Shown here piece after piece: positions 18,496 through 36,290 of a stretch of DNA of 64,000 nucleotides; the stretch's first letter is position 1, and every line of letters starts with the position of its first letter. The translations under genes and the position numbers were made by a program. The DNA is taken from contig CAZWFQ010000003.1 of assembly GCA_964633225.1 (NCBI GenBank), forward strand, positions 26,064-90,063, given 5' to 3'. This DNA comes from an uncultured Anaerolineaceae bacterium (GTDB lineage Bacteria > Chloroflexota > Anaerolineae > Anaerolineales > UBA4823). Under the pieces are notes generated by a model that did no database searches, had not been told where the DNA came from, and saw only the letters and a list, made by a program, of their open reading frames with translations.

Positions 18496-18503
18496 GTAAA
18501 CTT

Positions 18504-18923
18504 TTACCGTTGCGTGGGCCGGCGCTTCTTGATTGGAGGAGCGTCAAAACGCCCATAGCGGCGCGCCCCGCCCATGCGGTACATAACGGCATAGATAATC
18601 GATATCAAGCCAAAACCGACGAACAAAAACGCAATCGAGAAGAGGATTTGTCCAGTGGTGAAGCGGCTCAAGAAGCCGTTCACCTGGGCAATGTAGGTAT
18701 TCACAAACAAGATCTCTGTATCATCCGAATAGGCTAACGCCATTGGTTGGTACATGTTGGCAGGCAAAGGGACCAGGCGAGAATTCATGAACACATCTGC
18801 CCCAACCCAGGCCATAATAGGAACCAAGATGATCAAAAAACAGCCAATTCCACGCCACACTGGATGAATTGACCAGGGACGCTCACGTTGACCTTTATCC
18901 ATTCTTCCAGGACCAAAACCCAT
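18504..18923 (-). CDS. hypothetical two-TM membrane protein
   Basis: 139 aa. GGAGGTG RBS. Two hydrophobic helices and a basic C-terminal tail. Confidence 0.65.
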   Translation of the reverse strand: MGFGPGRMDKGQRERPWSIHPVWRGIGCFLIILVPIMAWVGADVFMNSRLVPLPANMYQPMALAYSDDTEILFVNTYIAQVNGFLSRFTTGQILFSIAFLFVGFGLISIIYAVMYRMGGARRYGRFDAPPIKKRRPTQR

Positions 18924-18980
18924 CTCACACCTCCTGTGGCGGGCTTTTACCCACCCTGTTCAAGATTAATGATGGCGCCT

Positions 18981-20393: not shown

Positions 20394-21198
20394 CTTTATT
20401 CTCCATTTGTGCCGTCATGGTCTGGCCGCTGCCGCCTTTTTGCAGCATGATGATTTCAGCCATGATACTGACAGCGATCTCCTCAGGGGTCTCAGCATTC
20501 AGTTCCAGGCCAATCGGAGAACGCACGCGCCCCAATTGATCCTCGCTGACACCCTTTTCCAATAATTGCTTGCGGGTCATGCCCCAGCGGCGGCGTGAGC
20601 CGATCAGGCCAATGTAGGCAGCCGGGGTCTCCAATAGGGCCGGCAAGCCAGCCACATCCACATCCACGCCGCGGGTGGTCAACACCAGGTAGGTCCAGGG
20701 GGTGATCTTCAAATGGGCCGGCAGATCAGCCATCGGCACGGGGTAAAAAGCATTCCCATCGGGGATGGCCTCGGAGGTACACAGCTCTACCCGATCGTCG
20801 CTGACGGCAACGGAAAAGCCCAACCAATGCGCCAGGTGCGCCACGGCCTTGCCAACATGCCCTGCGCCAAGAACTACCAGGGTTGGTTTAGGTTGCAGTG
20901 GTTCCACATACACCTCCACCTGCCCACCGCAGATGCCCGGATCGCCGCGCTGCGGGTCGGCCATATTATATTCCAACAGGCGCGGCTGGCCATCCAGCAT
21001 GGCCTGGAGCGCCTCTGCGATGACACGATTCTCGATCTCACCACCGCCCACTGAACCCACCAGGCTGCCATCAGGCAGAACCAGCATTTTGCTGGTGGTG
21101 TGGCGAGGTGTGGAGCCGCGGCTGCGCACAATGGTACACAAAGCGGCGGCTTCATTGCGTTCTTCCAGATCAGCAATTACCCGGTAAATTGACTGCAT
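20383..21198 (-). CDS. xdhC: XdhC/CoxI-family molybdenum hydroxylase maturation chaperone
   Basis: XdhC_CoxI N-domain (LCTIVRSRGSTPR) plus Rossmann part VVLGAGHVGKAVAHLAHWLGFSVAVSDDR. The ATG at 21198 lies 1 nt after the stop of the upstream gene. The ORF-track 5' extension to 21279 would overlap that gene. Confidence 0.88.
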   Translation of the reverse strand: MQSIYRVIADLEERNEAAALCTIVRSRGSTPRHTTSKMLVLPDGSLVGSVGGGEIENRVIAEALQAMLDGQPRLLEYNMADPQRGDPGICGGQVEVYVEPLQPKPTLVVLGAGHVGKAVAHLAHWLGFSVAVSDDRVELCTSEAIPDGNAFYPVPMADLPAHLKITPWTYLVLTTRGVDVDVAGLPALLETPAAYIGLIGSRRRWGMTRKQLLEKGVSEDQLGRVRSPIGLELNAETPEEIAVSIMAEIIMLQKGGSGQTMTAQMENKDVA

Positions 21199-21199
21199 A

Positions 21200-22546
21200 T
21201 CAATGCTCCAATAATCCCAACACCACCGGCAAGAGTTGCTTTTTACGGCTGACCACGCCTGGCGCGCTAAAGGTACCATCCGGCAAGCGGGGATAAGGCA
21301 GGTCGGCCAGCATCGGCGGCGCGTTGACGGTCAACAAACGGCTGGCATTATCGACCACATCCGTCACCATCAGCATGGCAAAGTCAAGGCCACTCTGCTG
21401 GCGCAGTTCGGTCAGCGCGCCAGAAAGGGGTTCCAAATGCTCATCCATCTGCATCAGGTCGGTCACCTCGGCCTGGGCAATGGCAAAGTGCAAACCACCG
21501 GCTTCATAGATCTTTAAATCAGAGCTGACGATCTCGCGCGAGTCACGCGTGGCTAACCCCGCTCCAGCCTGTATGACCTGTTTGCCATAATCCTGAATGG
21601 TCTCACCTGCCAGGGGACTGTTGCGAACGAAAGCCCAACGCCCCAGGCGTTCGGCTGCCCGCCGGTCGCGGTCGGTGGTGGTGGGCGAGGTGAGGATCAA
21701 CGTATCAGATAGCAAACCAGACAAAAGCATGCCAGCCAGGGCTGGTGGGGCGCTCAAGCCTGCATCCTCGATGCGCTCAGAGACCAGGGTGCTGGTGCTG
21801 CCCACGATATCCACCGTAAAGCGGATCGGCACATGGGTGGAATTATTCCCCAGACGGTGGTGATCCAGGATCTCGACCAGCTCAGCTTCTTCAATTGCAC
21901 CCAAGGCCTGACCCGGTTCGTTATGATCGACCATCACGATGCGCAAGCGCGGCGGGTTCAACACATCCCGCTGGTTGGCCACGCCCACATAAAGGCCTTT
22001 CTCGTCTACCACCAAGAAGTCATTATGTTCTTCGCGCAAGATGCGATTGATGACATCGCGGATGCGCAAGCCAGCCGGGAAGCGCGGCGCTTCTGTATCG
22101 CAGGCTTCGCGGCAGGGCGTATCTAAAATCTCTGCCAGGCGCATTTCTTGCCGCCGCAAGTGAGGGCCAACCAACTTACCCAGGTAATTGAACAGGCTAA
22201 GACCAGTGACCAACCCCAAAGGCACACCGTCATCGCTCACGATGGGGGCAACGCCCCCCGTGCGGCTGGCAATTCCCCAGCCTTCGCGCAGTGGGCTCTC
22301 GGGCGTGGCGGTATCCAGGCGGCGGGTGACCGCATCAAAACGCGGCGAGGCATCGGTCAACAGCAGAGGGGCGTCCAATCCCAGGCGTCTTAGAATCCAG
22401 GTAGTTTGAAGATTGGTAGCCCCGGCGCGTGCTGCGATGGCATCTGTACCGTCTCGCTCTCGCAGCAGCCAGGCATAGCCCATGGCGGCAGCCACAGAAT
22501 CGGTATCGGGGTTCACATGCCCAATCACATAGGTCTGGTCAGTCAT
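21200..22546 (-). CDS. DHH-CBS-DHHA2 phosphoesterase (CBS-regulated family II inorganic pyrophosphatase-like)
   Basis: GHVNPDTDS, MVDHNE and ILDHHRLG DHH motifs. A CBS-pair insert of about 120 aa and a C-terminal DHHA2-like region. Confidence 0.8.
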   Translation of the reverse strand: MTDQTYVIGHVNPDTDSVAAAMGYAWLLRERDGTDAIAARAGATNLQTTWILRRLGLDAPLLLTDASPRFDAVTRRLDTATPESPLREGWGIASRTGGVAPIVSDDGVPLGLVTGLSLFNYLGKLVGPHLRRQEMRLAEILDTPCREACDTEAPRFPAGLRIRDVINRILREEHNDFLVVDEKGLYVGVANQRDVLNPPRLRIVMVDHNEPGQALGAIEEAELVEILDHHRLGNNSTHVPIRFTVDIVGSTSTLVSERIEDAGLSAPPALAGMLLSGLLSDTLILTSPTTTDRDRRAAERLGRWAFVRNSPLAGETIQDYGKQVIQAGAGLATRDSREIVSSDLKIYEAGGLHFAIAQAEVTDLMQMDEHLEPLSGALTELRQQSGLDFAMLMVTDVVDNASRLLTVNAPPMLADLPYPRLPDGTFSAPGVVSRKKQLLPVVLGLLEH

Positions 22547-22569
22547 AGATGGCGTTTCTATCCTCTAAC

Positions 22570-24666
22570 TCAAGCCTTTTTATTCGCAGCCTGCTCACGC
22601 AGTTGTTCGACGCGGTTTAGCAGCACCTGCGCCTCACTATGTGCACCGCGCTGCTTGAACAGGTCACTAGCTTGCAAGCAAGCTGCAACCGCTTCGTTGA
22701 TAGAGCCTGCGGCCTCAAACTGATCAGCCGCCATGATCAGAAAATCGGGGTCTGCGTGCTTCATCATCCAATGACCAACTGCCAGATGGTACTGCAGGCG
22801 GTAAGCGGTCGGGATCAACTCATATGCCAGGTCGCGCAGGACATCGTGCTTGAAAATGTATTCCTGCTCGCTAGAGTATTCACTGTTGGCGCGCGGGAAA
22901 GCCAGTTCTGCTTTGACCAATAAACGCAGCCCTTCTTGTACCGACTGTTCAGCCAGCACCGAGGGCACCGTCAGGTGCAGGTCGGTATGCTTCCCCACAA
23001 AAGCACGCACGGCCGATTCAATACCGCCTACCCAAAATACACGCCCCGAGACTGCCGCCAACATCGCCGCAGCTCTTGCCAGGCGCGGCAGATCAGCCAG
23101 GCGGGTCTTGAGCAAAGCAGGCAACGATTCAGGTGGCTGCGTGCGCAGTTGAGACAGCTTCTCATACATCAATTCCTCGCCGCCTTGTTCACTGCTCTTC
23201 AAGAGCAGGCGCACGATCTCTTCCAAGAAGTATGGGTTGCCTGCCGCATACCGCACCAGCGGGGCCAAAACATGATCCGGCAGAGAAGCCAGGTTCGGAT
23301 AAGCATTCATCACCGTTTCGGCATTGGCTGGCAGCGGGTCCAACCGGATCACCCGCCCCAGGTCAGACAACTTGCAGGTTTGTGTTTGGCAGGGATGATC
23401 CAAAAATTCAGGCGCTACACCTGCCACAATCAACAAAGGCAGGCGGCTATCTGAAGAATTATTCAACAAAGACAGGACCAATTCCAGGCTGTCTGGATCT
23501 GACCATTGAAGATCATCCAACACCAGCGTGGTAGGGCGCGAGCTCGCAATCCGCTTCATCAACTCACGCGTCAACTCAAAAGCCCGCTCCAACCGGCCCT
23601 GTGGATTTTGGGCAAAGGAGGCCAAGTAGGGGCTGCCCTGCCAGGCAAGGCCCACCAGGCTGCCTACCAGGTGCGCCGCCTCCAAGAGCGGCACCGGGCC
23701 CAACGTCCGCCCCCAGGCGCGCTGGAATTCACGCAAAAACTTCTCATTGGTTACCGCCGGGCTTTCATCAGGCCGCAAGCCAAAACGGTTGTACCAGACC
23801 AATTTCCACATGTGAAAGGGCACCCGGGCCGTTTGAGCCAGGGCGCGTGCCGATAACAAGTAGAAAGAGTTGTTATTGCTCTCCAAGAGGCCAGAAAACT
23901 CCATCAGCAAGCGTGATTTTCCAATCCCTGGCTCACCGCTCACCAGGATCAAAGCCGGCTTGCCCGAGCGCACCACCTCCTGGTATTGTTCGTTCAGTTG
24001 GCTCAACACCTCAGACCGGCTGGTCATGCGGGTCGGCAGGTTATCCAGGGTGCCGTAACGTGCCCGGCCTGAAGTAGCTTGCGTATCAATGACCTCATAA
24101 GGCTCGACCGGCTTTGGGAAACCCTTCAATTGGATCTGCGGAAGTTTGCGCACCTGGAAGGCTCCACGTACAGCCTGGTTGGTGGCATCTCCGATCAAGA
24201 TCGTCTCTGCCTCAGCCGCGTCTGCCAGGCGAAAGGCCAGGTTGACCACTTCGCCCATGACCGTGTATTCTTTCTGCGAGCCAACATAACCGGCATAAAC
24301 TTGTCCGGTGTACATTCCAATACGTAGTTGAAGCGCCAGCCCTTGTTTCTCGGCAAATTTGACATACCCAGCAACAGTTTTTTGGATCTCCAGGGCCGCT
24401 CTCACAGCGCGCTCAGCGTCATTTTCGCCCAGGGCCGGCACACCCCACACCGCCATCAGCATGTCACTCATGTGCTTGCAGATGTACCCGCCATGCCGCG
24501 CAACCACTGCTTCCAACCGGGGCCAGGCTTCACGTACCACCTCTCGCAAGGTGTCCAATTCCACCCGCTCGACCAAAGCATTCAAACCCTGGACGGACAC
24601 AAACATCACCGTCACCAGGCGACGCTCTTCAGGATAACGATCAGATTCTTGAGCAGAAGTCATCAA
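22570..24666 (-). CDS. class III nucleotidyl cyclase homology domain plus AAA/STAND ATPase plus TPR-like C-terminal region
   Basis: N-terminal CHD (residues about 15-190). Walker A SGEPGIGKSRL. Long helical-repeat C-terminus. No HTH seen. Confidence 0.85.
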   Translation of the reverse strand: MMTSAQESDRYPEERRLVTVMFVSVQGLNALVERVELDTLREVVREAWPRLEAVVARHGGYICKHMSDMLMAVWGVPALGENDAERAVRAALEIQKTVAGYVKFAEKQGLALQLRIGMYTGQVYAGYVGSQKEYTVMGEVVNLAFRLADAAEAETILIGDATNQAVRGAFQVRKLPQIQLKGFPKPVEPYEVIDTQATSGRARYGTLDNLPTRMTSRSEVLSQLNEQYQEVVRSGKPALILVSGEPGIGKSRLLMEFSGLLESNNNSFYLLSARALAQTARVPFHMWKLVWYNRFGLRPDESPAVTNEKFLREFQRAWGRTLGPVPLLEAAHLVGSLVGLAWQGSPYLASFAQNPQGRLERAFELTRELMKRIASSRPTTLVLDDLQWSDPDSLELVLSLLNNSSDSRLPLLIVAGVAPEFLDHPCQTQTCKLSDLGRVIRLDPLPANAETVMNAYPNLASLPDHVLAPLVRYAAGNPYFLEEIVRLLLKSSEQGGEELMYEKLSQLRTQPPESLPALLKTRLADLPRLARAAAMLAAVSGRVFWVGGIESAVRAFVGKHTDLHLTVPSVLAEQSVQEGLRLLVKAELAFPRANSEYSSEQEYIFKHDVLRDLAYELIPTAYRLQYHLAVGHWMMKHADPDFLIMAADQFEAAGSINEAVAACLQASDLFKQRGAHSEAQVLLNRVEQLREQAANKKA

Positions 24667-24702
24667 TTCTTACAATCCCTCGTTGTGAGCTGGATAAACC
24701 AG

Positions 24703-27700
24703 TTAGGATGTAGCCGTACCCGCAGGCCGCATGAACGCCCGCCACACCTTTTCGGGCGTAACTGGGTTCTCATTGATCTGCACACCGCGGCCGTCGGGTG
24801 CATATAGGCTGGCGTCTAACACTGCATTGCCAACTGCCGGAGCCACCCCATCCATCGGAATCTCTGCCACAGCCTTCACACCAAATGGGTGCGATGGCTC
24901 GTAGGTCTCCACAAAAATCGTCTCCAGCTCTGGCATTTCATGGGCCAGGAAAATATGATAATCGCGCAGATCACGCTCGCGCGGTTGGCCCTTCTCATCA
25001 TACACCATTTCTTCACAAACTGCATAGCCCAGAGCCTGGGTCATCCCGCCCTCAATCTGGCCAGAGGCCGTCAGCGGGTTGACGATGACGCCCGAATCGA
25101 CTGCCATCACCAGCTTGTCCACCTTCACCTGGCCCGTCTCAATATCCAGGGTTACCTCGGCAAATTGGGCAGCAAAGGGCGGCGGCGATACCGGCGACAT
25201 ATAAGAGGCCACCGCCATGATCTGTTCCTGGTTCTCATGGTGCAGGGCATTGTGAGCCACTTCTGCCAGGGTCACAAATTCACCGTTGGGCGCAGACGCC
25301 CGCCCATCTGACAAGGATATCATCGCAGCAGACAGTGCTTGTGCGCCCGATGCTTTCAGACGCTCGTTGAGCATATTTGCGGCCCGCTGGCGGATCTGCT
25401 CAGCCGCCTTCTCGGCAGCACGTGTCACTGCGCCGCCAGAGATGTACGTGGTGCTTGATGCGTAAGCGCCTTTATCAAAGGGAGTGAAATCGGTATCTGA
25501 AGAGTATACAACCACATCTTCCACCCGCACGCCCAGCACCTCTGCTGCCATCTGCGCCAGAACGGTATCCGAACCGGTCCCCAGGTCGGTGGCTCCAATG
25601 AGCAAATTGAAAGAGCCATCATCATTCATTTTGATGCTGGCAGCCCCCATATCCAGGTATGGAATAGCCGTGCCCTGCATCACCATCGCCACGCCCACCC
25701 CTTTACGCAGGTGAGGCTTGCCTGGCACATCATGCCAGGCCGCCTGGCCATATTTTTGATCCCAGCCAATGGCAGCCTTGCCCTGGCGCACACATTCTTC
25801 CAACCCGCAAGTCTGGATAGTCTCAGGGCGTGGTTCACGCCCCTCGCTCCAGGCTGTGCTGAAGGGATGCAGCTCACCAGCGCGCAAGGCATTCTTAAGC
25901 CGGAACTCCAATGGATCGAAACCCATGGCGCGGGCAATCTTCTCCATATGGCGCTCCAGCGGCCAATAACCCTGCGGAACGCCATAACCCCGGTAAGCAC
26001 CGGCTGGCGGATGGTTGGTGTACACCACGTCGGCATAGAAACGGATGTTGGGGTTCTCGCGGTACGGGCCATCTCCCACATATAAAGCCATGGCCTTGTG
26101 CCCTGTGTTGCCGGTCACCGTCAGCGCGTGGCAGCCATAAGCACCCGTATCGCTCAAGGCTTCCATAGAATTAGCTGTAATAGTTCCATCCAGCTTAACG
26201 CCGGTCTTCATGCGCACGCGCATGGGGTGGCGTGAGCGCGCAGCAATGAACTCTTCTTCACGGCTGTATTCATAAATCACGGGGCGGCCCGTGGCAATCG
26301 TCAGGTGAGCAGCTACATCCTCAATCAAGATCTCTTGCTTGCCGCCAAAGCCGCCGCCAATGCGCGGCTTGATCACCCGGATGCGCTTGACCGGCAGCTT
26401 CAACACTGGCGCCAGCACCCGCCGGATGTGGAAAGGCACCTGGGTGCTGGTACGGATCACCAGGCGGTCATCCTCGTCCCAATAGGTCACCGTTACGTGC
26501 GGCTCGATATGGGCTTGCTGCACTTTGGGCACCTCGTACTCAGCCTCAAAAATACGGTCAGCATCAGCAAAGCCTTTTTCCACATCACCAATATCAATGC
26601 GGATCTCCGCCGCCAGGTTTCGGGCGGGGTCTGAGTCGGCAAAATTGACAAATTCGGGTTCGTCGTGCAAGCGCGGCGCAGCAGGCTGCATGGCCTGGGC
26701 TGGGTCGAGCAAAGTGGGTAACAGCTCGTATTCTACATCGATCAACTTTAAGGCTTGCTCAGCGATTTCTTCTGTCTCAGCCGCCACAAAGGCCACCCGA
26801 TCACCCACAAAACGCACCTTATGATCCAATGAGAAAGCATCCAACGGGCCGGGGATGGGATCTGACTGCCCGGCGGTGGAGTAGATCACACGCGGGATGT
26901 CTTGCCAGGTCAATACTGCCGCCACCCCCGGCAGGGCACGCGCCCGGCTGGCATCAATGCGCCGGATGTTGGCATGTGCATGCGGGCTGTGCAGTACCTT
27001 GGCGTATAACATACCGCGTAGTTCCATGTCAGCGGCAAAAGCAGGCTTACCTTGCGCCAGCTTGACGGCATCCACCTTAATTTCTGATTTACCTACCCGT
27101 TGGAGGGCTACCGGCTGCGGTGTAACCACTACCCTAGACCTGGGACGCGCCTGCACGGCAGGTGAAGCCGGATCAGCCGGGCGGTCAGGCTCTTCGATCA
27201 CATCGCCAGGCCCTTGGGCAGAGCCCCAGAAACCCGTGCCACTGACCGGAATCCCGCCTTCAGAAGTCAGGCTCGCGGAGAACTTCCCCCCCAGCACCGC
27301 CGCCGCGTGCAGCACTGCCTGGACCGGTTTCACATAGCCGGTGCAGCGGCACAATACACCTGAGAGCGCCTGGCGTACTTCCTCTTCAGATGGATCAGGG
27401 TTACGATCTAGCAACGCCTTGGCCGCCAGCAGTTGCGCCGGGGTACAGTAGCCGCATTGGATGGCGCCGCTCTCGATAAAAGCCTGCTGTAGCACATGCA
27501 GGCCATCGGTAATCTTCCAGCCCTGCTGGGGGTGCTCTCCCAATGACTCAATGGTCTGGATCAAATGACCTTCAGCTTGCGCTGCCAACAGCAAGCACGA
27601 ATTAACCGGCTTGCCATCCAGCAGCACCGCACAAGCGCCGCATTCACCATGGTCGCAACCGTGCTTTGCGCCGTAATAACCCAGGCCGCGCAAGACCTTC

Positions 27701-27768
27701 AACAGGCTGTCGCCTGCCGCAACCGATACTTCTTGTAGGGTGCCGTTAATGCTCAGCGAAATCTTCAT
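24703..27768 (-). CDS. XDH-family fused [2Fe-2S] plus molybdopterin-binding catalytic subunit (enzyme B)
   Basis: N-terminal GCDHGECGACAV, QCGYCTP and CRCTGY. Then QQAHIEPH, GGGFGGKQE, SRHPM, YRGYGVPQ and AVAEIP. The preferred start is the ATG at 27768 (MKISLSINGT), preceded by GGAG. Confidence 0.92.
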   Translation of the reverse strand: MKISLSINGTLQEVSVAAGDSLLKVLRGLGYYGAKHGCDHGECGACAVLLDGKPVNSCLLLAAQAEGHLIQTIESLGEHPQQGWKITDGLHVLQQAFIESGAIQCGYCTPAQLLAAKALLDRNPDPSEEEVRQALSGVLCRCTGYVKPVQAVLHAAAVLGGKFSASLTSEGGIPVSGTGFWGSAQGPGDVIEEPDRPADPASPAVQARPRSRVVVTPQPVALQRVGKSEIKVDAVKLAQGKPAFAADMELRGMLYAKVLHSPHAHANIRRIDASRARALPGVAAVLTWQDIPRVIYSTAGQSDPIPGPLDAFSLDHKVRFVGDRVAFVAAETEEIAEQALKLIDVEYELLPTLLDPAQAMQPAAPRLHDEPEFVNFADSDPARNLAAEIRIDIGDVEKGFADADRIFEAEYEVPKVQQAHIEPHVTVTYWDEDDRLVIRTSTQVPFHIRRVLAPVLKLPVKRIRVIKPRIGGGFGGKQEILIEDVAAHLTIATGRPVIYEYSREEEFIAARSRHPMRVRMKTGVKLDGTITANSMEALSDTGAYGCHALTVTGNTGHKAMALYVGDGPYRENPNIRFYADVVYTNHPPAGAYRGYGVPQGYWPLERHMEKIARAMGFDPLEFRLKNALRAGELHPFSTAWSEGREPRPETIQTCGLEECVRQGKAAIGWDQKYGQAAWHDVPGKPHLRKGVGVAMVMQGTAIPYLDMGAASIKMNDDGSFNLLIGATDLGTGSDTVLAQMAAEVLGVRVEDVVVYSSDTDFTPFDKGAYASSTTYISGGAVTRAAEKAAEQIRQRAANMLNERLKASGAQALSAAMISLSDGRASAPNGEFVTLAEVAHNALHHENQEQIMAVASYMSPVSPPPFAAQFAEVTLDIETGQVKVDKLVMAVDSGVIVNPLTASGQIEGGMTQALGYAVCEEMVYDEKGQPRERDLRDYHIFLAHEMPELETIFVETYEPSHPFGVKAVAEIPMDGVAPAVGNAVLDASLYAPDGRGVQINENPVTPEKVWRAFMRPAGTATS

Positions 27769-27798
27769 CTTTACTCCGTCGTTGAACGATTCCAATCG

Positions 27799-29427
27799 TT
27801 ACGCTGCGTCTTTCGGTTTCAATATCATTGCCAACAATGCCGATATCCCTGCCAAGAGAATCCCCAAAACCGAGACGATCAATCCCTGGATCAAGGAAAT
27901 GAATGACAGGAACGTGCTGTTAAATTCCGGCAGGGTCCACCCCACCACTGGGCCGTTGAGCACAAAACTGACCGCCACTGGCAGCGCCAGCAAGAAGATC
28001 ACGGCAAATGTCAATCCCAGGGATGTTTCAGCGGCAATGCGGGCACTGCCACGCAAGGCCCTTAGCCCCAGCATCACCACCAGCCAACTCGCGATCAGGG
28101 CAATTGCCGCCGTCACCGCACTGTACATGATCAGGTCAGTTGGGCTGATAACAGAACTGAGCGTATAGGTGCGCCCGCTTAAAACCGCATATCGCAGGTT
28201 GAAAATAACCAGGTACAACACCGCCCCGCCCAGCAGCCAGGCTACAATCCGGCTGCGCTTCCAAACCAGGATAGCCACCGGGATCAGCATGACCACCAGT
28301 GCCAACAGCAAGCGCGGCAGACGCTCGCCTGCCAGCCGGGCAGCCCGCGCCTCGGGAATGGTTTGCCCATCTGCCTCTCCAATGGCCCGGACGTAAGTAT
28401 CCGTCAACAGTTGTTTTTGAGCCGCATCAGCGCTTTGGATGGCAGCTAACTGCTCAGCCGAAAGCAGCAGCATATCGGTGAGCGCCTGCCCCTGGGTGGC
28501 AGCCGGCAGGTTCAACCCCAATAACACGCTCAGCGTGGGGGCCACATCCACCATGTACACATCCTCATACTGACCAGGTTTTACGCCTGCCCCTACCAGC
28601 ACAAAAGGTTCCAACAAGGCCACGGCGTCTTGCCCGCCGTGTCCGCCCCGGTCAATATGACCGTGATCGCTGACCACCAGCAAGGTATCCTGGCTAAAAT
28701 CCAGCCTGGCTGCAATCTCTCGCAAGTGATCATCACAGCGGCGAGCGGCCTCGTCCCAACGCACATCAATTGGCCCGCCCTCATGGTGCCCGGCATAATC
28801 CACCTGGTCTAAATGGATCAGCACCAATTGGTAATCTCTGGTTTCAAGCCAGGGTAAGGCCGCATCAACAACCTGGCGGTCAGCCTCCTGGTCTTCGCCG
28901 GGCGTGTAAAAGCTAGCCTGCACCGCCGACTGAGGGGCTAACTTCTCGAACCAATAATAACCCGAGATGGCCGTTTGCAGCCCGACACGCTCTGCTGCGG
29001 CGAACAGGTTGTCTTGGGTCCAGGTAGGGATGGCTTCGTAATCCAGGTTCACTGCTGGCCCATCGCTGATATCAGGCCAGGCGCCCGTAAAGAGCACCGA
29101 ATAACCCGTCTCAGAATACGAGGGGGGTTGACTGTGCATGGTGGCCCAGGCCCCCTGCTGGCGCAGTTCATTCAGATAGGGGGTCACTTCTGCATCCAGC
29201 GAAGTATCCAGGCGTAAGCCGTCGATCAACACAAATACCACCCGCTGGGTCAGAGGCTGGCCCAAGGGCTGGGCAGGCTGAGGCGGGGTCTCGCTCAAGG
29301 GCGAGCGATATACATACAACGAATCAATCAAACTGGTGGCGCCGAAGTACCCCGCGGCCGCCAGGATCAAACACCCTAAGATACCTAGGTAAATCCAACG
29401 ATACTTCATTCGAGTTTGCTCCATCAA
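27799..29427 (-). CDS. alkaline-phosphatase-superfamily (nucleotide pyrophosphatase/phosphodiesterase-like) membrane protein
   Basis: N-terminal TM helix. VVFVLIDGLRLD, PSYSETGYSVLFTG (nucleophile region), DQVDYAGHHEGGP and VVSDHGH motifs. About 5-6 C-terminal TM helices. Confidence 0.8.
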   Translation of the reverse strand: MMEQTRMKYRWIYLGILGCLILAAAGYFGATSLIDSLYVYRSPLSETPPQPAQPLGQPLTQRVVFVLIDGLRLDTSLDAEVTPYLNELRQQGAWATMHSQPPSYSETGYSVLFTGAWPDISDGPAVNLDYEAIPTWTQDNLFAAAERVGLQTAISGYYWFEKLAPQSAVQASFYTPGEDQEADRQVVDAALPWLETRDYQLVLIHLDQVDYAGHHEGGPIDVRWDEAARRCDDHLREIAARLDFSQDTLLVVSDHGHIDRGGHGGQDAVALLEPFVLVGAGVKPGQYEDVYMVDVAPTLSVLLGLNLPAATQGQALTDMLLLSAEQLAAIQSADAAQKQLLTDTYVRAIGEADGQTIPEARAARLAGERLPRLLLALVVMLIPVAILVWKRSRIVAWLLGGAVLYLVIFNLRYAVLSGRTYTLSSVISPTDLIMYSAVTAAIALIASWLVVMLGLRALRGSARIAAETSLGLTFAVIFLLALPVAVSFVLNGPVVGWTLPEFNSTFLSFISLIQGLIVSVLGILLAGISALLAMILKPKDAA

Positions 29428-29442
29428 AACCTGATCACTGCC

Positions 29443-30204
29443 TCATTCCAGGCAGCGTTTTGCCAGGGTTGCAGCCATTGCACAGCGGTATTCGGCACTG
29501 GCCCATTGATCATCTGCCTGGCTGTAAGCATTGTGTGCTGCAGCCTCCACCCCTCCGGGCTCAGGTCCATCCATCGCCAAGAGCGGGGCAGTGCCCCATC
29601 CACCCAACGCCAGGCGTGTACGGCCTGCCGGCCATTGCGCCAGTGCCGCGCAAACAATTGGCCGGTCAGCAGGCGTGCGCGCCACAGATTGATATGAAAG
29701 CTTGACCGTAGTAGCCGCCAGCACGATTTCCGTGATCAATCCGCGGCTCGGTCCGGCCTGCCGCATGGGCAGCCAACTACCGAGGCCAATCTTCTCACTG
29801 CCGCCCACTTTCCGGATGGTCAGGGAAGCATCCAAAGCCAACATGACCGTTGTGAGTGGAGAGCGGCCGTCTGCAGATGCCAGGGTTCCCGCCAGGGTGG
29901 CAGCCTGGCGCAAGTTGTGCGTCACTTCCAGCCGGATCGCCTCATAGAATATATCCGGTAAGCCCGGATGATCCAGCAAGTTCTGCAAAGTGACCGTTGC
30001 GCCCAGGTGCAGGTTATTTCCGCGCACTTCAATCTTGTTCAGGTCCAGGGCCTGCAGATCAATTACAGCCACCGCTCGAGACTCTGCCTGGGCCCAGCGG
30101 TTAAGCACCGTCCCGCCGCCCAGGGGCAGGGTCAATGGCTCTGACCGTTTTATCAACCGCAGAGCTTCATCAATTGTTTTTGGACGTTGGTATTCAACGA
30201 TCAT
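29443..30204 (-). CDS. XDH-family FAD-binding (CoxM-like) subunit (enzyme B), short form
   Basis: MIVEYQRPKTIDEALRL...LPLGGGTVLN. The ATG at 30204 lies 7 nt after the upstream stop. AAGGAG sits within the end of the upstream gene. Confidence 0.85.
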   Translation of the reverse strand: MIVEYQRPKTIDEALRLIKRSEPLTLPLGGGTVLNRWAQAESRAVAVIDLQALDLNKIEVRGNNLHLGATVTLQNLLDHPGLPDIFYEAIRLEVTHNLRQAATLAGTLASADGRSPLTTVMLALDASLTIRKVGGSEKIGLGSWLPMRQAGPSRGLITEIVLAATTVKLSYQSVARTPADRPIVCAALAQWPAGRTRLALGGWGTAPLLAMDGPEPGGVEAAAHNAYSQADDQWASAEYRCAMAATLAKRCLE

Positions 30205-30211
30205 TCCAAAT

Positions 30212-31285
30212 TCACTCCTTCTTACCAATCAAAAAGTAGGCCATCATATCGGGCTTGTTGGTCACCGGGATCAAGCTGCGCGCCTCAAACAAGTACTTGT
30301 CTTGCAGCCGCTCCTTCGTCACCGCTGAAACCTGGATCCGTCCTGGTACACCGTTCGCTTCCATGCTTTCAGCCACGCGCATTGTATCTCCCCACAGGTC
30401 ATAAATGAACTTCTTGCGCCCCACCACCCCTGCCACAACAGGCCCAGTGTGGATCCCAATGCGAATGCGCACCGGGCGGCCCTGGCTTGTCTCGAGTGCG
30501 GTATCTGCCATGCTGCCAATGGCCTGCTGCATATCCAAGGCCATCGCGGCCACTGCCTCGGCATGGTCTGGCCTGGGGGTTGGCAAGCCGCCGGCGATCA
30601 GGTAATTATCACCGATCGTTTTGATCTTTTCCAGGCCGTACTTGGCTGCCAATTCATCGAAACAAGAGAAGACCCCATTCAGCATCATGATCAGGTTGCC
30701 TGGGGTCATGTTCTCAGCCATGCGCGTGAAGCCAACAATATCTGCAAACAGCACGGTTACATCTGCAAAGCTATCCGCAATCACCAATTCGCCGCGCTTG
30801 AGTTTTTCGGCCACCGGCTGCGGCAGGATGTTCAACAACAGGTGCTCGGCTTTATCACGCTCTTCTTGCAAGGTAGCCAGGTAAGCTTGCTCCTGGTCAC
30901 GCAGGCGCTTTTTTTCCAGGCAGGCATCGATACGCGCGCTTAGCAGCACCGGATTAAAAGGCTTGGGCAGGTAATCTTCTGCACCCATCTCAATGCAGCG
31001 CACAATGCTTTCCAGTTCATCCAAAGCCGAGATCACAATCACTGGCAAAGAACGCAAAGCCGGTTCTTGCTTCATGGCATCCAATACCTGGTAGCCATCC
31101 ATTTCTGGCATCAAAATATCCAACAACACCAGGTCAAAGGCCTGGGAACGCATCTTTTCAATGGCTTGCAAACCGTTCTCAGCCAGGTCAACCTTATGCC
31201 CTTGCTGCTGTAAGCTGAACTCCAGCTTCATGCGGTTCAGGCGGTTGTCATCCACCACAAGGATCGTCCCGGGCCGCTTATCCAC
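30212..31285 (-). CDS. response regulator receiver fused to a class III cyclase homology domain
   Basis: REC (VVDDNRLNRM..., DLVLLDILMPEMDG, LPKP) plus a CHD closely alignable to mycobacterial Rv1625c-type cyclases (VLFADIVGFT, EKIKTIGDNY, YDLWGDTMRVAESME). The GTG start directly abuts the kinase stop codon. Confidence 0.92.
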   Translation of the reverse strand: MDKRPGTILVVDDNRLNRMKLEFSLQQQGHKVDLAENGLQAIEKMRSQAFDLVLLDILMPEMDGYQVLDAMKQEPALRSLPVIVISALDELESIVRCIEMGAEDYLPKPFNPVLLSARIDACLEKKRLRDQEQAYLATLQEERDKAEHLLLNILPQPVAEKLKRGELVIADSFADVTVLFADIVGFTRMAENMTPGNLIMMLNGVFSCFDELAAKYGLEKIKTIGDNYLIAGGLPTPRPDHAEAVAAMALDMQQAIGSMADTALETSQGRPVRIRIGIHTGPVVAGVVGRKKFIYDLWGDTMRVAESMEANGVPGRIQVSAVTKERLQDKYLFEARSLIPVTNKPDMMAYFLIGKKE

Positions 31286-34200
31286 TCACTGCCTCAACGC
31301 ATCCGCCAGCATCCTGGCAACCTCTTGATACTGAATGCCAACCTGATCCAGCAGATCGGCGGCACCATCCAGGCGACTTTCCTTGCCCATGTATTCCAGT
31401 TCGCGGCAAAGCCGGGTGAGCTTGTGCGCCCCAAACTGGGCACTGTTTGCCTTGAGGCTGTGGGCGGCAAGCCGCAGCGCGGCGACATCGCCTTGTTCGA
31501 TCGCCTGGCGCATCGCTTCCAACTGGTGCGGCCCATCCTCCAGCAAAGTGGCGATCAGATCTTTGACAAACCCGCTGTCACCCCCAGCCATACCCCAGAT
31601 CTGGGTAAGATCCAATATCTGCGAAGCATCAGCTTGAGGCGCCGCCGGGGCTGGCTGGCCAGGCGCATTTGATTGCAAAGCAACCTCTACCAACCCATCT
31701 TTGCGAGATGCAAGATTGGCTGCCAGACGGCAATTTTTTAGCGCATAGATCAACTCATCCACCTGGATCGGCTTGGCCAGGTAATCATCCATGCCAGCCG
31801 CCAGGCAGGCCGAGCGGTCTTCGCGCATGGCATTGGCGGTCATGGCAATCACCCGTGGGCGGCGCTCGGCTGGCAAATCCTGATGGATGCGCCGGGAGGC
31901 TTCCAGGCCATCCATTTCGGGCATTTGCACATCCATCAGCACCACATCGTAATCCTGGCGCTGCAGAGCATCCAAAACCTCCAGGCCATTACCTGCCACG
32001 TCTGCCCGGTATCCCATCCGTTCCAGCATCCTTAAAGCCAGCTTCTGGTTAACCGCGTTATCCTCCGCCAGCAAGATGCGCAACGGATTGCGGGAGCCCA
32101 TTTCGGGGTCAAAGTGCATGCCATCTGGCGAAGCCAATTCGGGGGCACTGCCAACTGCAAAAATATCGACCAAAATGTTATATAACTGCGAAGCTTTAAT
32201 AGGCTTAGTGAGGTAAACCGTAAAGGCATCATTTTCATCACCTGCATCGTGCGGCCCCACCGAGCTGAGCATCACCATGGGGATGACACCTGCCCCGCGC
32301 AGGTGCTTGATCTCCGCGGCCAGGGTCAAGCCATCCATTTCGGGCATCTGCACATCCAGGATGGCAATATCAAACTGCTGCCCCTGGCGGATCCATTCCA
32401 AAGCCTCCAAAGGCGAAGCCGTTACCGCCGGCAGCATCCCCCAAGACTGTGACTGAAGGGTCAGAATACGGCGGTTGGTGGCATTATCATCCACAATCAA
32501 AGCCCGCCGCCCGTGTAAATCGGGCTGAACGCGCTCGAGATATGCCGGGGTGGGGATTGGAGCAGGCTGTGCCTTGATGGTGAAGTGGAACGTGCTGCCT
32601 TTGCCCAGTTCACTCTCCACCCACATCGTGCCACCCATCAGCTCTGCTAAGCGTTTGCTGATTGCCAGCCCCAGGCCGGTGCCGCCATAACGGCGGGTAG
32701 TTGAAGAATCGACCTGAGTAAAGGATTGGAATAGATGATCAACCCGGTCAGAGGGAATGCCAATCCCTGTATCATGCACAGAAAAATGGAGCATGAACGC
32801 ACCCTCACAAGGATCGCTTCCTTCTGCCACGGCCCCCACGCTGCCTGCTGGTGCCAGGGCTGGCCCCATACATTGAACATTGACCACCACCTCACCCAGC
32901 TCGGTGAACTTCACCGCATTGCTCAAAAGGTTGACCAAGATCTGGCGTAAGCGGGTCACATCCCCGTAAATAGCAGCCGGAACTTTTTCATCCAGCAAAT
33001 AAGCGATATCCAGTGACTTCTCAGATGCCCGGGTAGCTAACAGATCGAGGGCACTTTCAATGCAGTCTCGCAGGTTCAATGCCTGGCGTTCCAGCTCCAT
33101 CCGCCCGGCCTCAATCTTCGAAAAATCCAGGATATCGTTAATGATGGTCAATAACGCATCCCCGCTCTGGCGGATCGTCTCAGTGAATTCAAGCTGCTCA
33201 GCGGTCAGGTTGGTATCCAGCAGCAGGCTGGTCATACCAATCACTGCGTTCATGGGGGTGCGGATCTCATGGCTCATCGTCGCCAGGAAGACACTCTTGG
33301 CCTGGTTAGCGGCCTCTGCCGCATCTTTGGCCTGCTGCATAGCTTCAAACAAGCGGGCATTTTCAATCGCCCCGCTGATCTGCCCGGTAATGGTCTCTGC
33401 CAGCTTCACTTCTTCGTCTGAGAAAGAGACTGCCTTCTCATCCCGGTCCACACCAATCGTGCCAAAGACTTCACCCCGCGCCACCATGGGGATGATCATC
33501 AACGAGCGCGATCGGCGCTCGCTTAACAGGCCATGGATCTTTTCTGTCAGGGGGCTGGTTTGCGCATTTGCGATGTTGATTGGCTGCATGGTCTGGATGA
33601 CACGCATGGATGACAAATTGCCGTCCAAAGGGATGAAAGTGCCCAAATCTGTCTGCGCATTTGGATCGCGCTGCTGATCAACCACCAACACCAACCCATT
33701 ACGCTGCACATCTAGCAGGGCGATGCCGCAACTGTGCCCATTAAAAATCTGAAGCATTTCCCGGGCTACGCTGTCTAGAGCCGTACGCGCATCCCTGGCA
33801 GCGGTCACCAACCCCATGATGCGGTTCAAGACAGCCAGTTCTTGAATGCGCTTTTCCAACTGTGCGGTGCGTTGTTCGACTTTTTCTTCCAGGTTTTGGT
33901 TGTACTCTTCTAGCCGCGCCTTGGCCTGCTCCAGGTCTGACATGGCCTTGTGCTTGGCTTCAAGGTTGGAGGCCTGAAAACGTAACAAGAACACCAACAA
34001 CAAGCACACCACCACCACAATCATGGCGGTTGGCACCACCTCGGTCAACAAGCTGGTCAGATCGGTGGGATTTTGGGTATAGATCAACCACTGATCCAGT
34101 TTTCGGGCCTGGGCCAGGTAGGTGAAACCTGCCAGGGTGAGCAGGCTAAGCAGGGTCATCACCAACCCCGAGCGCACACTGACCAATACCAGCGCCACAA

Positions 34201-34543
34201 TCGGCAGCAAAACCAGGTACTCTCGCCCCGCGCCAGGCAGCCCGCCTCGCACCAGGGCAACCGCCCCCACCACATACAAAAGCACCAGGATAACCCAGCC
34301 CTTTACCTGGGCAGGCACCTGCCTGAGGTAGGTAATGGCAATCAAAATCACGTACAACAGGACATAAAGCAGCATTGCCGGTCGCTGGGCAGGATCTTGC
34401 CAACCCCCAGCAATTGCTACCACCAAGATCGGCAGCCCCACAACCGTCATCACCATCAACACCACACGCAAGACGCGAGCACGCCACTCGTTCAACAACG
34501 AGTCAATTTGACGGCTTCTGACGTGGGGGATTTTGATCTTCAT
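31286..34543 (-). CDS. hybrid sensor histidine kinase (multi-TM sensor, GAF, HisKA, HATPase, two REC domains, Hpt)
   Basis: H-box [12 protein letters not shown] boxes ([24 protein letters not shown]). Two DVQMPEMDG receiver domains. C-terminal Hpt motif [14 protein letters not shown]. Confidence 0.95.
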
Positions 34544-34581: not shown

Positions 34582-35073
34582 TTATTCAAGCTCTTGATCC
34601 TCTTCAGGGTAAACTTTCCAACCCAAAGCTTCCAGGTCAGCCTGCGTCATCCCTTCTGAGGGCACGTTCACAAGCAGTGCCTCTGCTTCTGCCAGCAACT
34701 GCCCATCCGCAGAATAAATGGCGCTGGTGGCAGTGGCGACACGGCCCTTATCTTTGCCGGCCCGCCCTACCACGCGCAGGGGCTGCCCAATGGGCACATT
34801 CTTGCGATAACGCACATCCAGGCGGGCGGTGTACATGAACCGTGGTTCGCCTTCGACAGGGTCTTTGGTGTAAACCCGACCCGCCGCTTCATCCAACATA
34901 GACGCCACAATCCCACCATGCACAACCCCCGGATAGCTCTGGAAATGCTCCGGGACGGTATATTCCACCAGCACCTCGCCAGGGGCGGTTTGATAGAATT
35001 TCAATTTCAAGCCATGCGGGTTTTCGAGACCGCAGATAAAACAATGTCGAGAATTGGGCTGGCGGTTGCGCAA
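34582..35073 (-). CDS. PaaI-family hotdog-fold thioesterase
   Basis: 163 aa. [12 protein letters not shown] zinc-ribbon-like N-terminus and the [15 protein letters not shown] hotdog motif. Confidence 0.8.
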
Positions 35074-35157
35074 TGTAGTTCTCCTCAGTGAAAGATCAAC
35101 TGGTTAATTATACCCTCTGCCATTGCCCCAAGGATCCTGACGACAGACACAATCCTT

Positions 35158-35180
35158 AAAGGGGGGGCAATGCCCCCCCC
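35158..35180 (-). terminator. G/C-run hairpin terminator after the LLM oxidoreductase gene
   Basis: On the minus strand: GGGGGGGGCATTGCCCCCCC followed by TTTAAGG. It lies in the 129-nt gap that ends the F420 block. Confidence 0.55.
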
Positions 35181-35202
35181 ATAAATGCTAGATTAATCTT
35201 AC

Positions 35203-36201: not shown

Positions 36202-36290
36202 GTCATCCTCCTGATTAAAATGGTCGAAATTTTTGTCTTTACTGATCATGCATCGATCACGAAACCGAAGTTCAGCCCATCACGCAGAGA

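What the first reader, a model, noticed from the sequence alone, without database searches (positions are those of the whole stretch)
22570..31285. Two cyclase homology domains in one operon are crippled in complementary ways, predicting an obligate C1/C2-like heterodimer
I aligned both domains to the Rv1625c catalytic domain. The six canonical residues, as I recall them, are metal D256/D300, substrate K296/D365 and transition-state N372/R376.
- REC-CHD (30212-31285) keeps D182, D226, K222 and D296. It has R303 in place of Asn and S307 in place of Arg. Its motif reads YDLWGDTMRVAESME against YDVWGDAVNVASRME. The CGC codon lies at 30377-30379.
- CHD-AAA-TPR (22570-24666) has S24 in place of the first metal Asp. 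Its motif reads MFVSVQGLN against LFADIVGFT (24595-24597). It keeps D68, K64, N142 and R146, and has T135 for the substrate Asp.

Established: in head-to-tail class III dimers, each site takes both Asp from one chain and K/D/N/R from the other. Mammalian C1:C2 has one such site. Rv1625c point mutants of the two classes complement each other.

Inference: neither homodimer should be active, but the heterodimer rebuilds exactly one complete site. That would put cyclase output under joint control of phosphorylation (REC, from the adjacent hybrid kinase) and of a STAND ATPase/TPR sensor.
Basis: partly seen in the sequence, partly recalled or inferred. Interest (0 to 1): 0.8.

Follow-up and report, generated by a model that had tools for sequence, protein, structure and literature searches.

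The report
Complementary half-dead cyclase gene pair
Two neighbouring cyclase genes in an Anaerolineales bacterium each lack a different half of the catalytic site, so they may make cAMP only as a mixed pair, like the two halves of mammalian adenylyl cyclase; the defects are real, but the pairing is untested and is a recent state of one lineage.

Summary

- **REC-CHD (30212-31285, minus strand):** it keeps both metal Asp (D182, D226) and the base-contact residues K222 and D296. It has R303 for Asn, S307 for Arg and, newly found, T342 for the phosphate-binding Lys of the beta7-beta8 loop.
- **CHD-STAND protein (22570-24666, minus strand):** it has S24 for the first metal Asp. It keeps D68, K64, T135, N142, R146 and K181.
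- **Rarity:** 114 of 120 REC-CHD homologues and 103 of 120 STAND-CHD homologues are canonical.
- **Selection:** both domains are under strong purifying selection against a sister species (dN/dS 0.055 and 0.031).

Related genomes show this is not an old design. The CHD-STAND gene belongs to a conserved xanthine-dehydrogenase-like and CBS-pyrophosphatase-like cluster. Its CHD is normally canonical there. A hybrid-kinase + REC-CHD module was inserted at the base of one clade, the same clade in which the STAND-CHD lost its metal Asp. In sister lineages the REC-CHD is canonical and the STAND-CHD is dead on both half-sites, or the module is missing.

A one-site heterodimer is the best single explanation (about 0.4). 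It would join class IIIa to class IIIb, and only the REC-CHD has the dimerising helix. No interaction could be tested here.

The parts
31286..34543 (-). Hybrid histidine kinase (MASE11-GAF-HisKA-HATPase-REC-REC-Hpt). It is the likely phosphodonor for the REC-CHD, and its stop codon abuts the REC-CHD start.
   Evidence: Pfam. The kinase + REC-CHD pair is conserved in L008, L009, L013, L101 and L105.
30212..31285 (-). REC-CHD, 357 aa, class IIIa-like. It is the predicted C1-like subunit, supplying the metal half-site.
30929..31264 (-). Receiver domain (residues 8-119). D12, D13 and the acceptor D56 are present.
   Evidence: Pfam, 105 bits; residues.
30782..30910 (-). Helical linker (residues 126-168, ...LLLNILPQPVAEKL...), homologous to the Cya helical domain / cyclase transducer element.
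   Evidence: HMMER alignment to Cya 7YZ9 and 5O5K starts at query residue 128. dN/dS is 0.041.
30227..30778 (-). Cyclase homology domain of the REC-CHD (residues 170-353).
   Evidence: Pfam PF00211, 187 bits.
30740..30742 (-). D182, first metal Asp, kept (GAT). The second metal Asp, D226, lies at 30608-30610.
30377..30379 (-). R303 (CGC), in place of the ribose-orienting Asn of helix alpha4.
   Evidence: The relatives L013 and L008 have AAC here, so two base changes were needed.
30365..30367 (-). S307 (AGC), in place of the transition-state Arg of helix alpha4.
   Evidence: The change is shared with the lineage that is 83% identical (P0002 / L013).
30260..30262 (-). T342 (ACC), in place of the triphosphate-binding Lys of the beta7-beta8 loop (VKGKG reads VTNKP here).
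   Evidence: The role of the residue is from PMC2576301.
29443..30228 (-). FAD-binding subunit of a molybdenum hydroxylase. It is the first gene of the resident cluster, and its true start is probably near 30204.
   Evidence: Pfam; orthologues are 254-255 aa.
27799..29427 (-). Membrane protein of the type I phosphodiesterase / nucleotide pyrophosphatase family. It occupies a slot whose content varies between relatives.
   Evidence: Pfam. Relatives carry an M16 peptidase, a beta-helix protein or Fic plus a methyltransferase here.
24703..27795 (-). Fused 2Fe-2S and molybdopterin subunit, similar to xanthine dehydrogenase XdhA.
   Evidence: Pfam; NCBIfam, below curated cut-offs.
22570..24666 (-). 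CHD-STAND protein, 698 aa. It is the predicted C2-like subunit, supplying the substrate and transition-state half-site.
   Evidence: The AF2 model has pLDDT 82.5.
24097..24630 (-). Cyclase homology domain of the STAND protein (residues 13-190), class IIIb-like, with no N-terminal helix.
   Evidence: Pfam. The best sequence hit is CyaB 3R5G, which is also the best Foldseek hit (TM 0.89).
24595..24597 (-). S24 (TCC), in place of the first metal Asp.
24229..24243 (-). N142 (24241-24243) and R146 (24229-24231), both kept. K181, the beta7-beta8 Lys, is kept at 24124-24126.
23425..24021 (-). AAA_16 P-loop NTPase domain (residues 216-414), with Walker A GEPGIGKS (K250) and Walker B LVLDD (D384, D385).
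   Evidence: Pfam; residues.
21200..22546 (-). DHH-CBS-DHHA2 protein, similar to CBS-type Mn-dependent inorganic pyrophosphatases. It is the constant neighbour of the STAND-CHD gene.
   Evidence: Pfam; NCBIfam, below curated cut-offs; adjacency across loci.

Best explanation
**Shown**
- In this Anaerolineales lineage the REC-CHD keeps only the metal half-site: D182 and D226.
- The CHD of the STAND protein keeps only the other half-site: K64, T135, N142, R146 and K181.

**Inferred**
- The two cyclase domains pair head to tail into a mixed dimer.
- The mixed dimer has one complete ATP-cyclising site and one dead pseudo-site (S24 and D68 facing K222, D296, R303, S307 and T342). This is the layout of mammalian C1:C2 or sGC alpha:beta.
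- cAMP output would then need both inputs: the phosphorelay (hybrid kinase to REC) and the STAND NTPase.

**Inferred history**
1. A canonical, homodimeric CHD-STAND cyclase sat in an XDH-like / pyrophosphatase-like cluster.
2. A kinase + REC-CHD module was inserted upstream.
3. The STAND-CHD lost its metal Asp.
4. In this lineage the REC-CHD then lost Arg, followed by Asn and the loop Lys. In sister lineages the STAND-CHD decayed further instead.
For: 1. The residues are exactly reciprocal on the eight-residue catalytic scheme (scheme from PMC2576301).
2. Both states are rare in their families: 6 of 120 and 17 of 120 are non-canonical, and T342 is unique among 120.
3. Both CHDs are under strong purifying selection against the sister species L104, at dS about 0.6. 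dN/dS is 0.055 for the CHD of the REC-CHD. It is 0.031 for the STAND-CHD, the most constrained part of that protein, and 0.054 for the MoCo subunit. R303 and T342 are kept through synonymous codon changes.
4. Within the monophyletic clade that lost the metal Asp, only the window and L016 lineages keep all five residues of the other half-site. Six other lineages each lost two to five of them.
5. CHD identity between window and L016 is 74%, against 71% for the rest of the protein. That is close to the canonical pattern, where the CHD is the better conserved part. For L009 against L011 the figures are 63% and 71%.
6. Of the three REC-CHD defects, only Arg to Ser is shared with the L013 lineage, so it came first. 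Asn to Arg and Lys to Thr are specific to the window lineage. All three hit one half-site, and both Asp are kept.
7. Arg status is reciprocal in the pairs I could assemble. Window/L104, L013 with L016, and probably L105 with P0265 have a REC-CHD without Arg and a STAND-CHD with it. L008 and L009 are the reverse. Only window/L104 carry both genes on one piece of DNA.
8. The two genes sit in one co-directional string. Intergenic gaps run from 36 nt down to a nominal 17-nt overlap, and no terminator-like site falls in a gap.
9. Rv1625c D300A and R376A are each inactive alone and active together (PMC4821796).
Against: 1. No physical or structural test was possible.
2. The partners belong to different subclasses and are 27% identical. 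The REC-CHD is class IIIa and resembles Rv1625c and C1. The STAND-CHD is class IIIb and resembles CyaB.
3. Only the REC-CHD has the helical domain, which in Cya forms a two-stranded coiled coil that brings the catalytic domains together (PMC5699072). That helix is highly conserved here (dN/dS 0.041; 93% identity to P0002). This suggests the REC-CHD still homodimerises.
4. The complementarity is confined to one lineage. L008 and L009 have a canonical REC-CHD and a STAND-CHD dead on both half-sites. L011 lost the module yet keeps a dead STAND-CHD. So the STAND-CHD has a role that does not need the REC-CHD, and cAMP output from this cluster can be lost.
5. P0072 / L105 lost Asn and Arg on its own, in a sub-lineage whose STAND-CHDs lack Asn and the loop Lys.
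6. The window and L016 lineages share ancestry, so the co-variation rests on very few independent events.
7. CHD genes elsewhere in the genome could not be surveyed. Only two lie in the window.
Confidence: 0.4

Rival explanations
1. Both domains are catalytically dead pseudo-cyclases, kept for non-catalytic work such as nucleotide binding, dimerisation or scaffolding, or as a regulatory subunit. The cluster's cyclase output is being lost across this clade, and the complementarity seen here is a coincidence of which residues have decayed so far.
For: - The whole clade shows decay of the STAND-CHD. The first-Asp position reads S, V, L, Y, N, G, R or C. The CHD evolves faster than the rest of the protein (27-47% against 53-60% identity), which is the reverse of canonical lineages.
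- L011 keeps a dead STAND-CHD with no REC-CHD.
- P0072 / L105 lost Asn and Arg independently.
- Pseudo-enzyme domains can also show low dN/dS.
Against: - It needs this lineage alone to have kept all five residues of one half-site while six sister lineages lost two to five each. My rough estimate of that chance is 0.01 to 0.1.
- The STAND-CHD is the most constrained part of its protein here (dN/dS 0.031).
- All three REC-CHD losses fall on one half-site, and both Asp survive.
Confidence: 0.25
2. The REC-CHD is still an active homodimer. R303, one helical turn before the lost Arg on the same face of helix alpha4, takes over transition-state or phosphate contact, perhaps with altered kinetics or product. 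The STAND-CHD plays no part.
For: - Asn to Arg needed two base changes (AAC to CGC or CGT). The Arg is kept through a synonymous difference between two species.
- The helical dimerisation element and the REC domain are intact and conserved.
- The substrate residues K222 and D296 are kept.
Against: - The sister lineage (L013) has Ser at the Arg position and still Asn at 303. It therefore has no Arg at either place, yet it is conserved across 12 cluster members.
- The window lineage has also lost the beta7-beta8 Lys (T342). A homodimer would lack Asn, the canonical Arg and that Lys together.
- Rv1625c R376A is inactive (PMC4821796).
Confidence: 0.12
3. Each defective domain does work in a mixed dimer, but with a different CHD protein encoded elsewhere in the genome, not with its neighbour.
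For: - Many bacteria carry numerous class III cyclases, up to 30 in a strain (PMC9552081).
- Only 64 kb of this genome was visible.
- The STAND gene exists without a neighbouring REC-CHD in relatives.
Against: - It requires two extra partners with exactly the matching defects or surpluses, where one neighbour already fits.
- The kinase + REC-CHD insertion coincides, at the resolution of the tree, with the loss of the STAND-CHD metal Asp.
- Arg status is reciprocal across the assembled pairs.
Confidence: 0.1

Closest known systems
Mammalian membrane adenylyl cyclase C1:C2 pseudo-heterodimer (for example AC5 C1 / AC2 C2, PDB 1AZS and 1CJK)
   Same: One domain supplies both metal Asp and lacks the Asn-Arg pair. 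The other supplies Lys, Asp, Asn, Arg and Lys and lacks the Asp. The result is one active site and one pseudo-site (PMC4174876). The REC-CHD scores higher against C1 than against C2 of AC9 and AC5.
   Different: - Here the halves are two separate genes, 5.5 kb apart.
- They belong to different subclasses (IIIa and IIIb).
- Only one carries the helical transducer element.
- The STAND-CHD keeps its second Asp.
- The inputs are a receiver domain and a STAND NTPase, not G proteins.
- No heterodimer has been shown.
Rv1625c (M. tuberculosis Cya) complementing point mutants D300A + R376A
   Same: This is the experimental proof of principle. A metal-site mutant and a transition-state mutant are each inactive alone and active together (PMC4821796).
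   Different: Those are engineered mutants of one homodimeric protein. Here the defects are natural, fixed, and carried by two non-orthologous proteins.
Soluble guanylyl cyclase alpha/beta, and the chytrid rhodopsin-guanylyl-cyclase / NeoR heterodimers
   Same: These are natural two-gene class III cyclases. [quoted passage not shown]
   Different: They are eukaryotic, and their subunits are close paralogues of the same architecture, each with a helical domain.
CHD-NTPase (STAND) cyclases of the Rv0386 / Rv1358 / Rv2488c type
   Same: An N-terminal class III CHD is followed by an AAA_16-type P-loop NTPase and a helical C-terminal region. This comparison is from my own knowledge of those proteins; the architecture here is.
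   Different: No LuxR-type HTH and no Pfam TPR is detected here. The metal Asp is lost. The gene is fixed in an XDH-like / CBS-pyrophosphatase-like cluster.

Membership tests
Class III nucleotidyl cyclase catalytic domain (PF00211) | Sequence and fold match to the CHD | tested here: met
   The REC-CHD scores 187 bits and the STAND-CHD 75 bits. The AF2 model of the STAND-CHD superposes on CyaB 3R5G with TM 0.89.
Class III nucleotidyl cyclase catalytic domain (PF00211) | Two metal-binding Asp in each chain | tested here: not met
   The REC-CHD has D182 and D226. The STAND-CHD has S24 and D68, so it fails.
Class III nucleotidyl cyclase catalytic domain (PF00211) | Asn and Arg of helix alpha4, and Lys of the beta7-beta8 loop, in each chain | tested here: not met
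   The STAND-CHD has N142, R146 and K181. The REC-CHD has R303, S307 and T342, so it fails.
Class III nucleotidyl cyclase catalytic domain (PF00211) | Substrate-defining Lys plus Asp (class IIIa) or Thr (class IIIb), indicating ATP | tested here: met
   K222 and D296 in the REC-CHD; K64 and T135 in the STAND-CHD.
Complementary heterodimeric class III cyclase (C1:C2 / sGC type) | Reciprocal distribution of half-site residues between two chains | tested here: met
Complementary heterodimeric class III cyclase (C1:C2 / sGC type) | Physical head-to-tail heterodimer with one complete site | not testable with these tools
Complementary heterodimeric class III cyclase (C1:C2 / sGC type) | Both subunits of one subclass, each with a helical (transducer) domain that pairs in a coiled coil | tested here: not met
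   The REC-CHD aligns to Cya from residue 128, including the helical domain. The STAND-CHD starts at residue 13 and is CyaB-like, class IIIb. The role of the helix is from PMC5699072.
Complementary heterodimeric class III cyclase (C1:C2 / sGC type) | Complementarity maintained across orthologous pairs | tested here: inconclusive
   It is kept in the window and L104, and in L013 with L016. It is absent in L008 and L009, where the REC-CHD is canonical and the STAND-CHD is dead. L011 has no REC-CHD.
Response regulator receiver (PF00072) | Acidic pocket and phospho-acceptor Asp | tested here: met
   105 bits. D12, D13 and D56 are present. A cognate hybrid kinase with an Hpt domain lies directly upstream.
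STAND / AAA_16 P-loop NTPase | Walker A and Walker B motifs | tested here: met
   AAA_16 at 70 bits. GEPGIGKS with K250, and LVLDD with D384 and D385.
   No Pfam TPR family reaches E 0.001 or better. The AF2 model is all-helical from about residue 449, which is compatible with TPR-like repeats but does not show them.

The most novel reading that the evidence does not exclude
This would be a natural two-gene bacterial class III cyclase, caught while becoming asymmetric. A phosphorelay-controlled class IIIa CHD and a STAND-controlled class IIIb CHD have lost opposite half-sites. They would work only as a mixed dimer with one active site and one pseudo-site, that is, as an AND gate. Sister lineages preserve the alternative outcomes: a self-sufficient REC-CHD with a dead STAND-CHD, or loss of the whole module. 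Together they would form a living series for how C1/C2-type asymmetry arises.
Probability: 0.35. Interest if true: 0.8.

Novelty: new variant of a known kind. Interest (0 to 1): 0.6.

Why it matters
- **Current view.** Bacterial class III cyclases are described as monomers that must homodimerise, and heterodimeric half-site sharing is treated as a eukaryotic development (PMC4821796; PMC9552081). My full-text searches found no natural bacterial heteromeric class III cyclase.
- **If the pair works together.** It would be the first such case. It would also cross subclasses, and it would make cAMP output depend on two unrelated sensors.
- **Evolutionary value.** The related genomes hold every intermediate and alternative state. 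That makes the origin of C1/C2-type asymmetry testable with a handful of recombinant proteins.
- **If the pair does not work together.** The locus still documents stepwise, one-sided decay of two cyclase domains that remain under strong purifying selection. That would point to a non-catalytic role for these domains.

Tried and rejected
- **Fused-chain AF2 model.** I built REC-CHD 165-357, a linker and STAND 1-205, with a 33-row fused alignment. No heterodimer model exists.
- **Genome-contig scan with the STAND protein.** It returned only one true relative (L006, the sister MAG), whose contig is cut inside the MoCo gene.
- **Metagenome-contig scan.** It returned 80 loci, all 47% identical or less. 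These were useful for defining the canonical ancestral cluster but gave no new close pairs.
- **Joining L013 to L015-L017.** L013 carries the REC-CHD side and L015-L017 the STAND side. I found no DNA overlap, so they are linked only by coming from the same study and by consistent identity levels. The tail gene of L013 is an M16 peptidase.
- **Promoter and terminator scan.** No terminator-like site lies in an intergenic gap and no promoter is informative, so operon status stays open.
- **Shifted-residue alternative.** I considered that a profile alignment might reveal shifted canonical residues and rejected it. The only 'shifted' basic residue is R303, treated as a rival explanation.
- **Sequencing error or pseudogene.** Rejected on multiple assemblies and on dN/dS.
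- **Q131.** It replaces an Arg four residues before the substrate Thr, which is conserved in canonical STAND-CHDs. I could not verify that this is the beta4 triphosphate Arg, so I did not use it.

Full report
**1. What is in the window**

On the minus strand, tightly packed, lie these genes:

| Coordinates | Gene |
|---|---|
| 31286-34543 | Hybrid kinase (MASE11-GAF-HisKA-HATPase-REC-REC-Hpt) |
| 30212-31285 | REC-CHD |
| 29443-30228 | FAD-binding subunit |
| 27799-29427 | Membrane protein of the nucleotide pyrophosphatase family |
| 24703-27795 | Fused 2Fe-2S / molybdopterin subunit |
| 22570-24666 | CHD-AAA_16 protein |
| 21200-22546 | DHH-CBS-DHHA2 protein |
| 20383-21279 | XdhC |
| 18981-20393 | FAD / 2Fe-2S subunit |
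| 16777-18495 | DUF6909 protein |

These two are the only cyclase domains in the 64 kb. The nearest public relative is an Anaerolineales MAG, GCA_035341015.1.

**2.

- HMMER alignments to solved structures confirm the placement without shifts. The REC-CHD aligns to AC5 and AC9 C1 and C2. The STAND-CHD aligns to CyaB 3R5G. Family alignments agree.
- The REC-CHD signature is D-K-D-D-R-S against the canonical D-K-D-D-N-R, which 114 of 120 homologues carry.
- The STAND-CHD signature is S-K-D-T-N-R against the canonical D-K-D-T-N-R, which 103 of 120 carry.
- Thr at the substrate position is the normal class IIIb state, as in CyaB. It is not a defect.
- Pfam finds no TPR.

**3. A further defect, on the same side**

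Winger et al. assign each active site as follows (PMC2576301):

- From monomer A: two Asp and a beta4 Arg.
- From monomer B: the base-contact residues, Asn and Arg of helix alpha4, and a Lys in the beta7-beta8 loop.

In the REC-CHD that loop reads VTNKP instead of VKGKG. T342 stands where the other 119 homologues have Lys or Arg. The STAND-CHD keeps this Lys, K181.

The REC-CHD has therefore lost three monomer-B residues and no metal Asp. The STAND-CHD has lost one metal Asp and no monomer-B residue.

**4. The states are fixed and constrained**

- A sister species carries both genes on one contig (L104), with the same residues.
- It codes R303 as CGT against CGC here, and T342 as ACA against ACC.
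- At dS about 0.6, dN/dS takes the following values:

| Region | dN/dS |
|---|---|
| REC-CHD, cyclase domain | 0.055 |
| REC-CHD, helical linker | 0.041 |
| STAND, cyclase domain | 0.031 |
| STAND, NTPase domain | 0.088 |
| STAND, C-terminal region | 0.074 |
| MoCo subunit | 0.054 |

Neither domain is drifting.

**5. Where the genes come from**

- Orthologues of the STAND gene, down to about 38% identity, always sit next to the DHH-CBS-DHHA2 gene. They lie within the same XDH-like cluster.
- In 23 such loci the CHD is fully canonical. Where upstream sequence is visible (L020, L047, L030, L036, L048), no kinase or REC-CHD is present.
- One monophyletic clade has lost the first metal Asp. It contains the window, L001, L016, L008, L019, L018, L009 and L011, and it is supported by trees of both the NTPase part and the MoCo subunit.
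- The replacement residue differs in nearly every lineage: S, V, L, Y, N, G, R or C.
- The kinase + REC-CHD module is seen only in this clade. It sits between a 4HBT thioesterase gene and the FAD-subunit gene.
- The REC-CHDs of the module form one group. The module was therefore gained once, near the clade's base, and lost again in L011.

**6. Fates within the clade**

Signatures are written as metal Asp 1, Lys, metal Asp 2, substrate residue, Asn, Arg, then the loop Lys.

| Lineage | REC-CHD | STAND-CHD |
|---|---|---|
| Window and L104 | D K D D R S - T | S K D T N R - K |
| L013 with L016 | D K D D N S - K | V K D T N R - R |
| L008 | canonical | L K D T K Q - P |
| L009 | canonical | Y K D T S H - V |
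| L011 | module absent | N K D A S R - deletion |
| L105 (P0072) | D K D D A Y - R | not on contig |
| L018 | unknown | G I D T N R - I |
| L019 | unknown | R A D N T Q - V |

- L013 and L016 come from the same study, but I could not join the contigs.
- L105 lost Asn and Arg independently and groups with L009 and L011.
- A likely relative of L105's partner, P0265, reads C K D T K R - I.
- Sources.

**7. Rates of change**

- In canonical lineages the CHD is the best conserved part of the STAND protein, by 6 to 16 identity points over the rest.
- In most of the degenerate clade it is the worst, by 8 to 30 points.
- Between the window and L016 it is again slightly better conserved: 74% against 71%.

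**8. Weighing the explanations**

*For the heterodimer*

- The reciprocity is exact.
- The STAND-CHD half-site is retained intact only in this lineage, among eight in the clade.
- Constraint on both domains is strong.
- The REC-CHD losses are stepwise and one-sided.
- In the assembled pairs, Arg of helix alpha4 survives in one partner and is lost in the other.
- Rv1625c D300A and R376A show the principle works: each is inactive alone, and they are active together (PMC4821796).

*Against it*

- No interaction evidence exists.
- The partners are class IIIa and class IIIb and are 27% identical.
- Only the REC-CHD has the helical domain that in Cya pairs as a coiled coil to assemble active dimers (PMC5699072). 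That helix is very well conserved here, which suggests the REC-CHD still self-associates.
- Relatives show that the STAND-CHD persists when dead and without a REC-CHD.
- A REC-CHD can lose Asn and Arg where full complementation looks unlikely (L105).

*Probabilities*

| Explanation | Probability |
|---|---|
| Heterodimer with one active site | about 0.40 |
| Two pseudo-cyclases | about 0.25 |
| Homodimer rescued by R303 | about 0.12 |
| Partners encoded elsewhere | about 0.10 |
| Other | remainder |

**9. Relation to what is known**

- The arrangement works, on paper, like C1:C2 or sGC alpha:beta.
- It fails one structural criterion of those families: same subclass, with paired helical domains.
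- Its conservation across orthologues is mixed, so I do not file it as a member.
- The literature held here describes bacterial class III cyclases as homodimeric. Four searches found no natural bacterial heteromer.
- If true, it is a new variant of a known kind.

**10. Verdict**

Interest 0.6.

Noticed in passing
window 16777-30228 (minus strand); loci L008, L009, L011, L020, L021-L048: A conserved Anaerolineales cluster: FAD subunit, a variable gene, 2Fe-2S/MoCo subunit, CHD-STAND, DHH-CBS-DHHA2 (similar to CBS-type inorganic pyrophosphatases), XdhC, FAD/2Fe-2S subunit, a ~139-aa protein and DUF6909. The cyclase and the pyrophosphatase-like gene are always adjacent, even where their order is swapped. 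Pyrophosphate is the cyclase's co-product.
   Followed up: partly
L105 10001-11089 (protein P0072): This is a second, independent REC-CHD in the same kinase + REC-CHD + FAD-subunit context. It lost Asn (to Ala) and Arg (to Tyr) while keeping both metal Asp. Its STAND partner is not on the contig. The candidate P0265 reads C-K-D-T-K-R-I.
   Followed up: partly
window 27799-29427; L008 4061-6973; L009 3645-6785; L020 2312-5034: The slot between the FAD-subunit gene and the MoCo gene holds different cargo in different relatives: a nucleotide pyrophosphatase-family membrane protein, an M16 peptidase, a beta-helix protein, or Fic plus a DNA methyltransferase.
   Followed up: no
window 24274-24276 (Q131 of the STAND-CHD): An Arg four residues before the substrate Thr (R-x-E-Y-T) is conserved in canonical STAND-CHDs and in CyaB. 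It is replaced by Q, N, E, L or H in the whole degenerate clade. It may be a second lost residue of the metal/phosphate half-site, but I could not verify the structural assignment.
   Followed up: partly
window 55311-61417 (minus strand): A second signalling pair has a similar layout. A PAS-GAF-GGDEF diguanylate cyclase gene (59879-61417) overlaps the start of a 7TM-PAS-GAF-HisKA-HATPase-REC-REC-Hpt hybrid kinase (55311-59882). That kinase is about 50% identical to the one upstream of the REC-CHD over 859 residues.
   Followed up: no
window 2168-6583 and 41759-45491 (minus strand): There are two further molybdenum-hydroxylase gene sets: MoCo subunits at 4364-6583 and 41759-44557, and a FAD subunit at 44541-45491. 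A YqeC + MobA-like fusion lies at 2168-3553 and an amidohydrolase at 39784-41133. The region looks dedicated to purine-like or N-heterocycle oxidation.
   Followed up: no
window 45568-48894 (minus strand): A 1108-aa BTAD-NB-ARC-TPR protein (AfsR/MalT-like STAND regulator) lies in the same window. It has genuine Pfam TPR hits, unlike the CHD-STAND protein.
   Followed up: no
window 24663-24666 and 30204-30228: Two listed start codons are probably over-extended. The STAND gene most likely starts at the ATG one codon downstream of the TTG, since orthologues are 697 aa. The FAD-subunit gene most likely starts near 30204, since orthologues are 254 aa. That would remove its apparent 17-nt overlap with the REC-CHD.
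   Followed up: partly
window 34582-39722 (minus strand); L101 1834-6713: Upstream of the kinase lie a 4HBT thioesterase gene, a luciferase-like (F420-dependent type) oxidoreductase gene and F420 biosynthesis genes (CofC, CofD, F420 ligase, F420 oxidoreductase). They are syntenic with the sister species.
   Followed up: no
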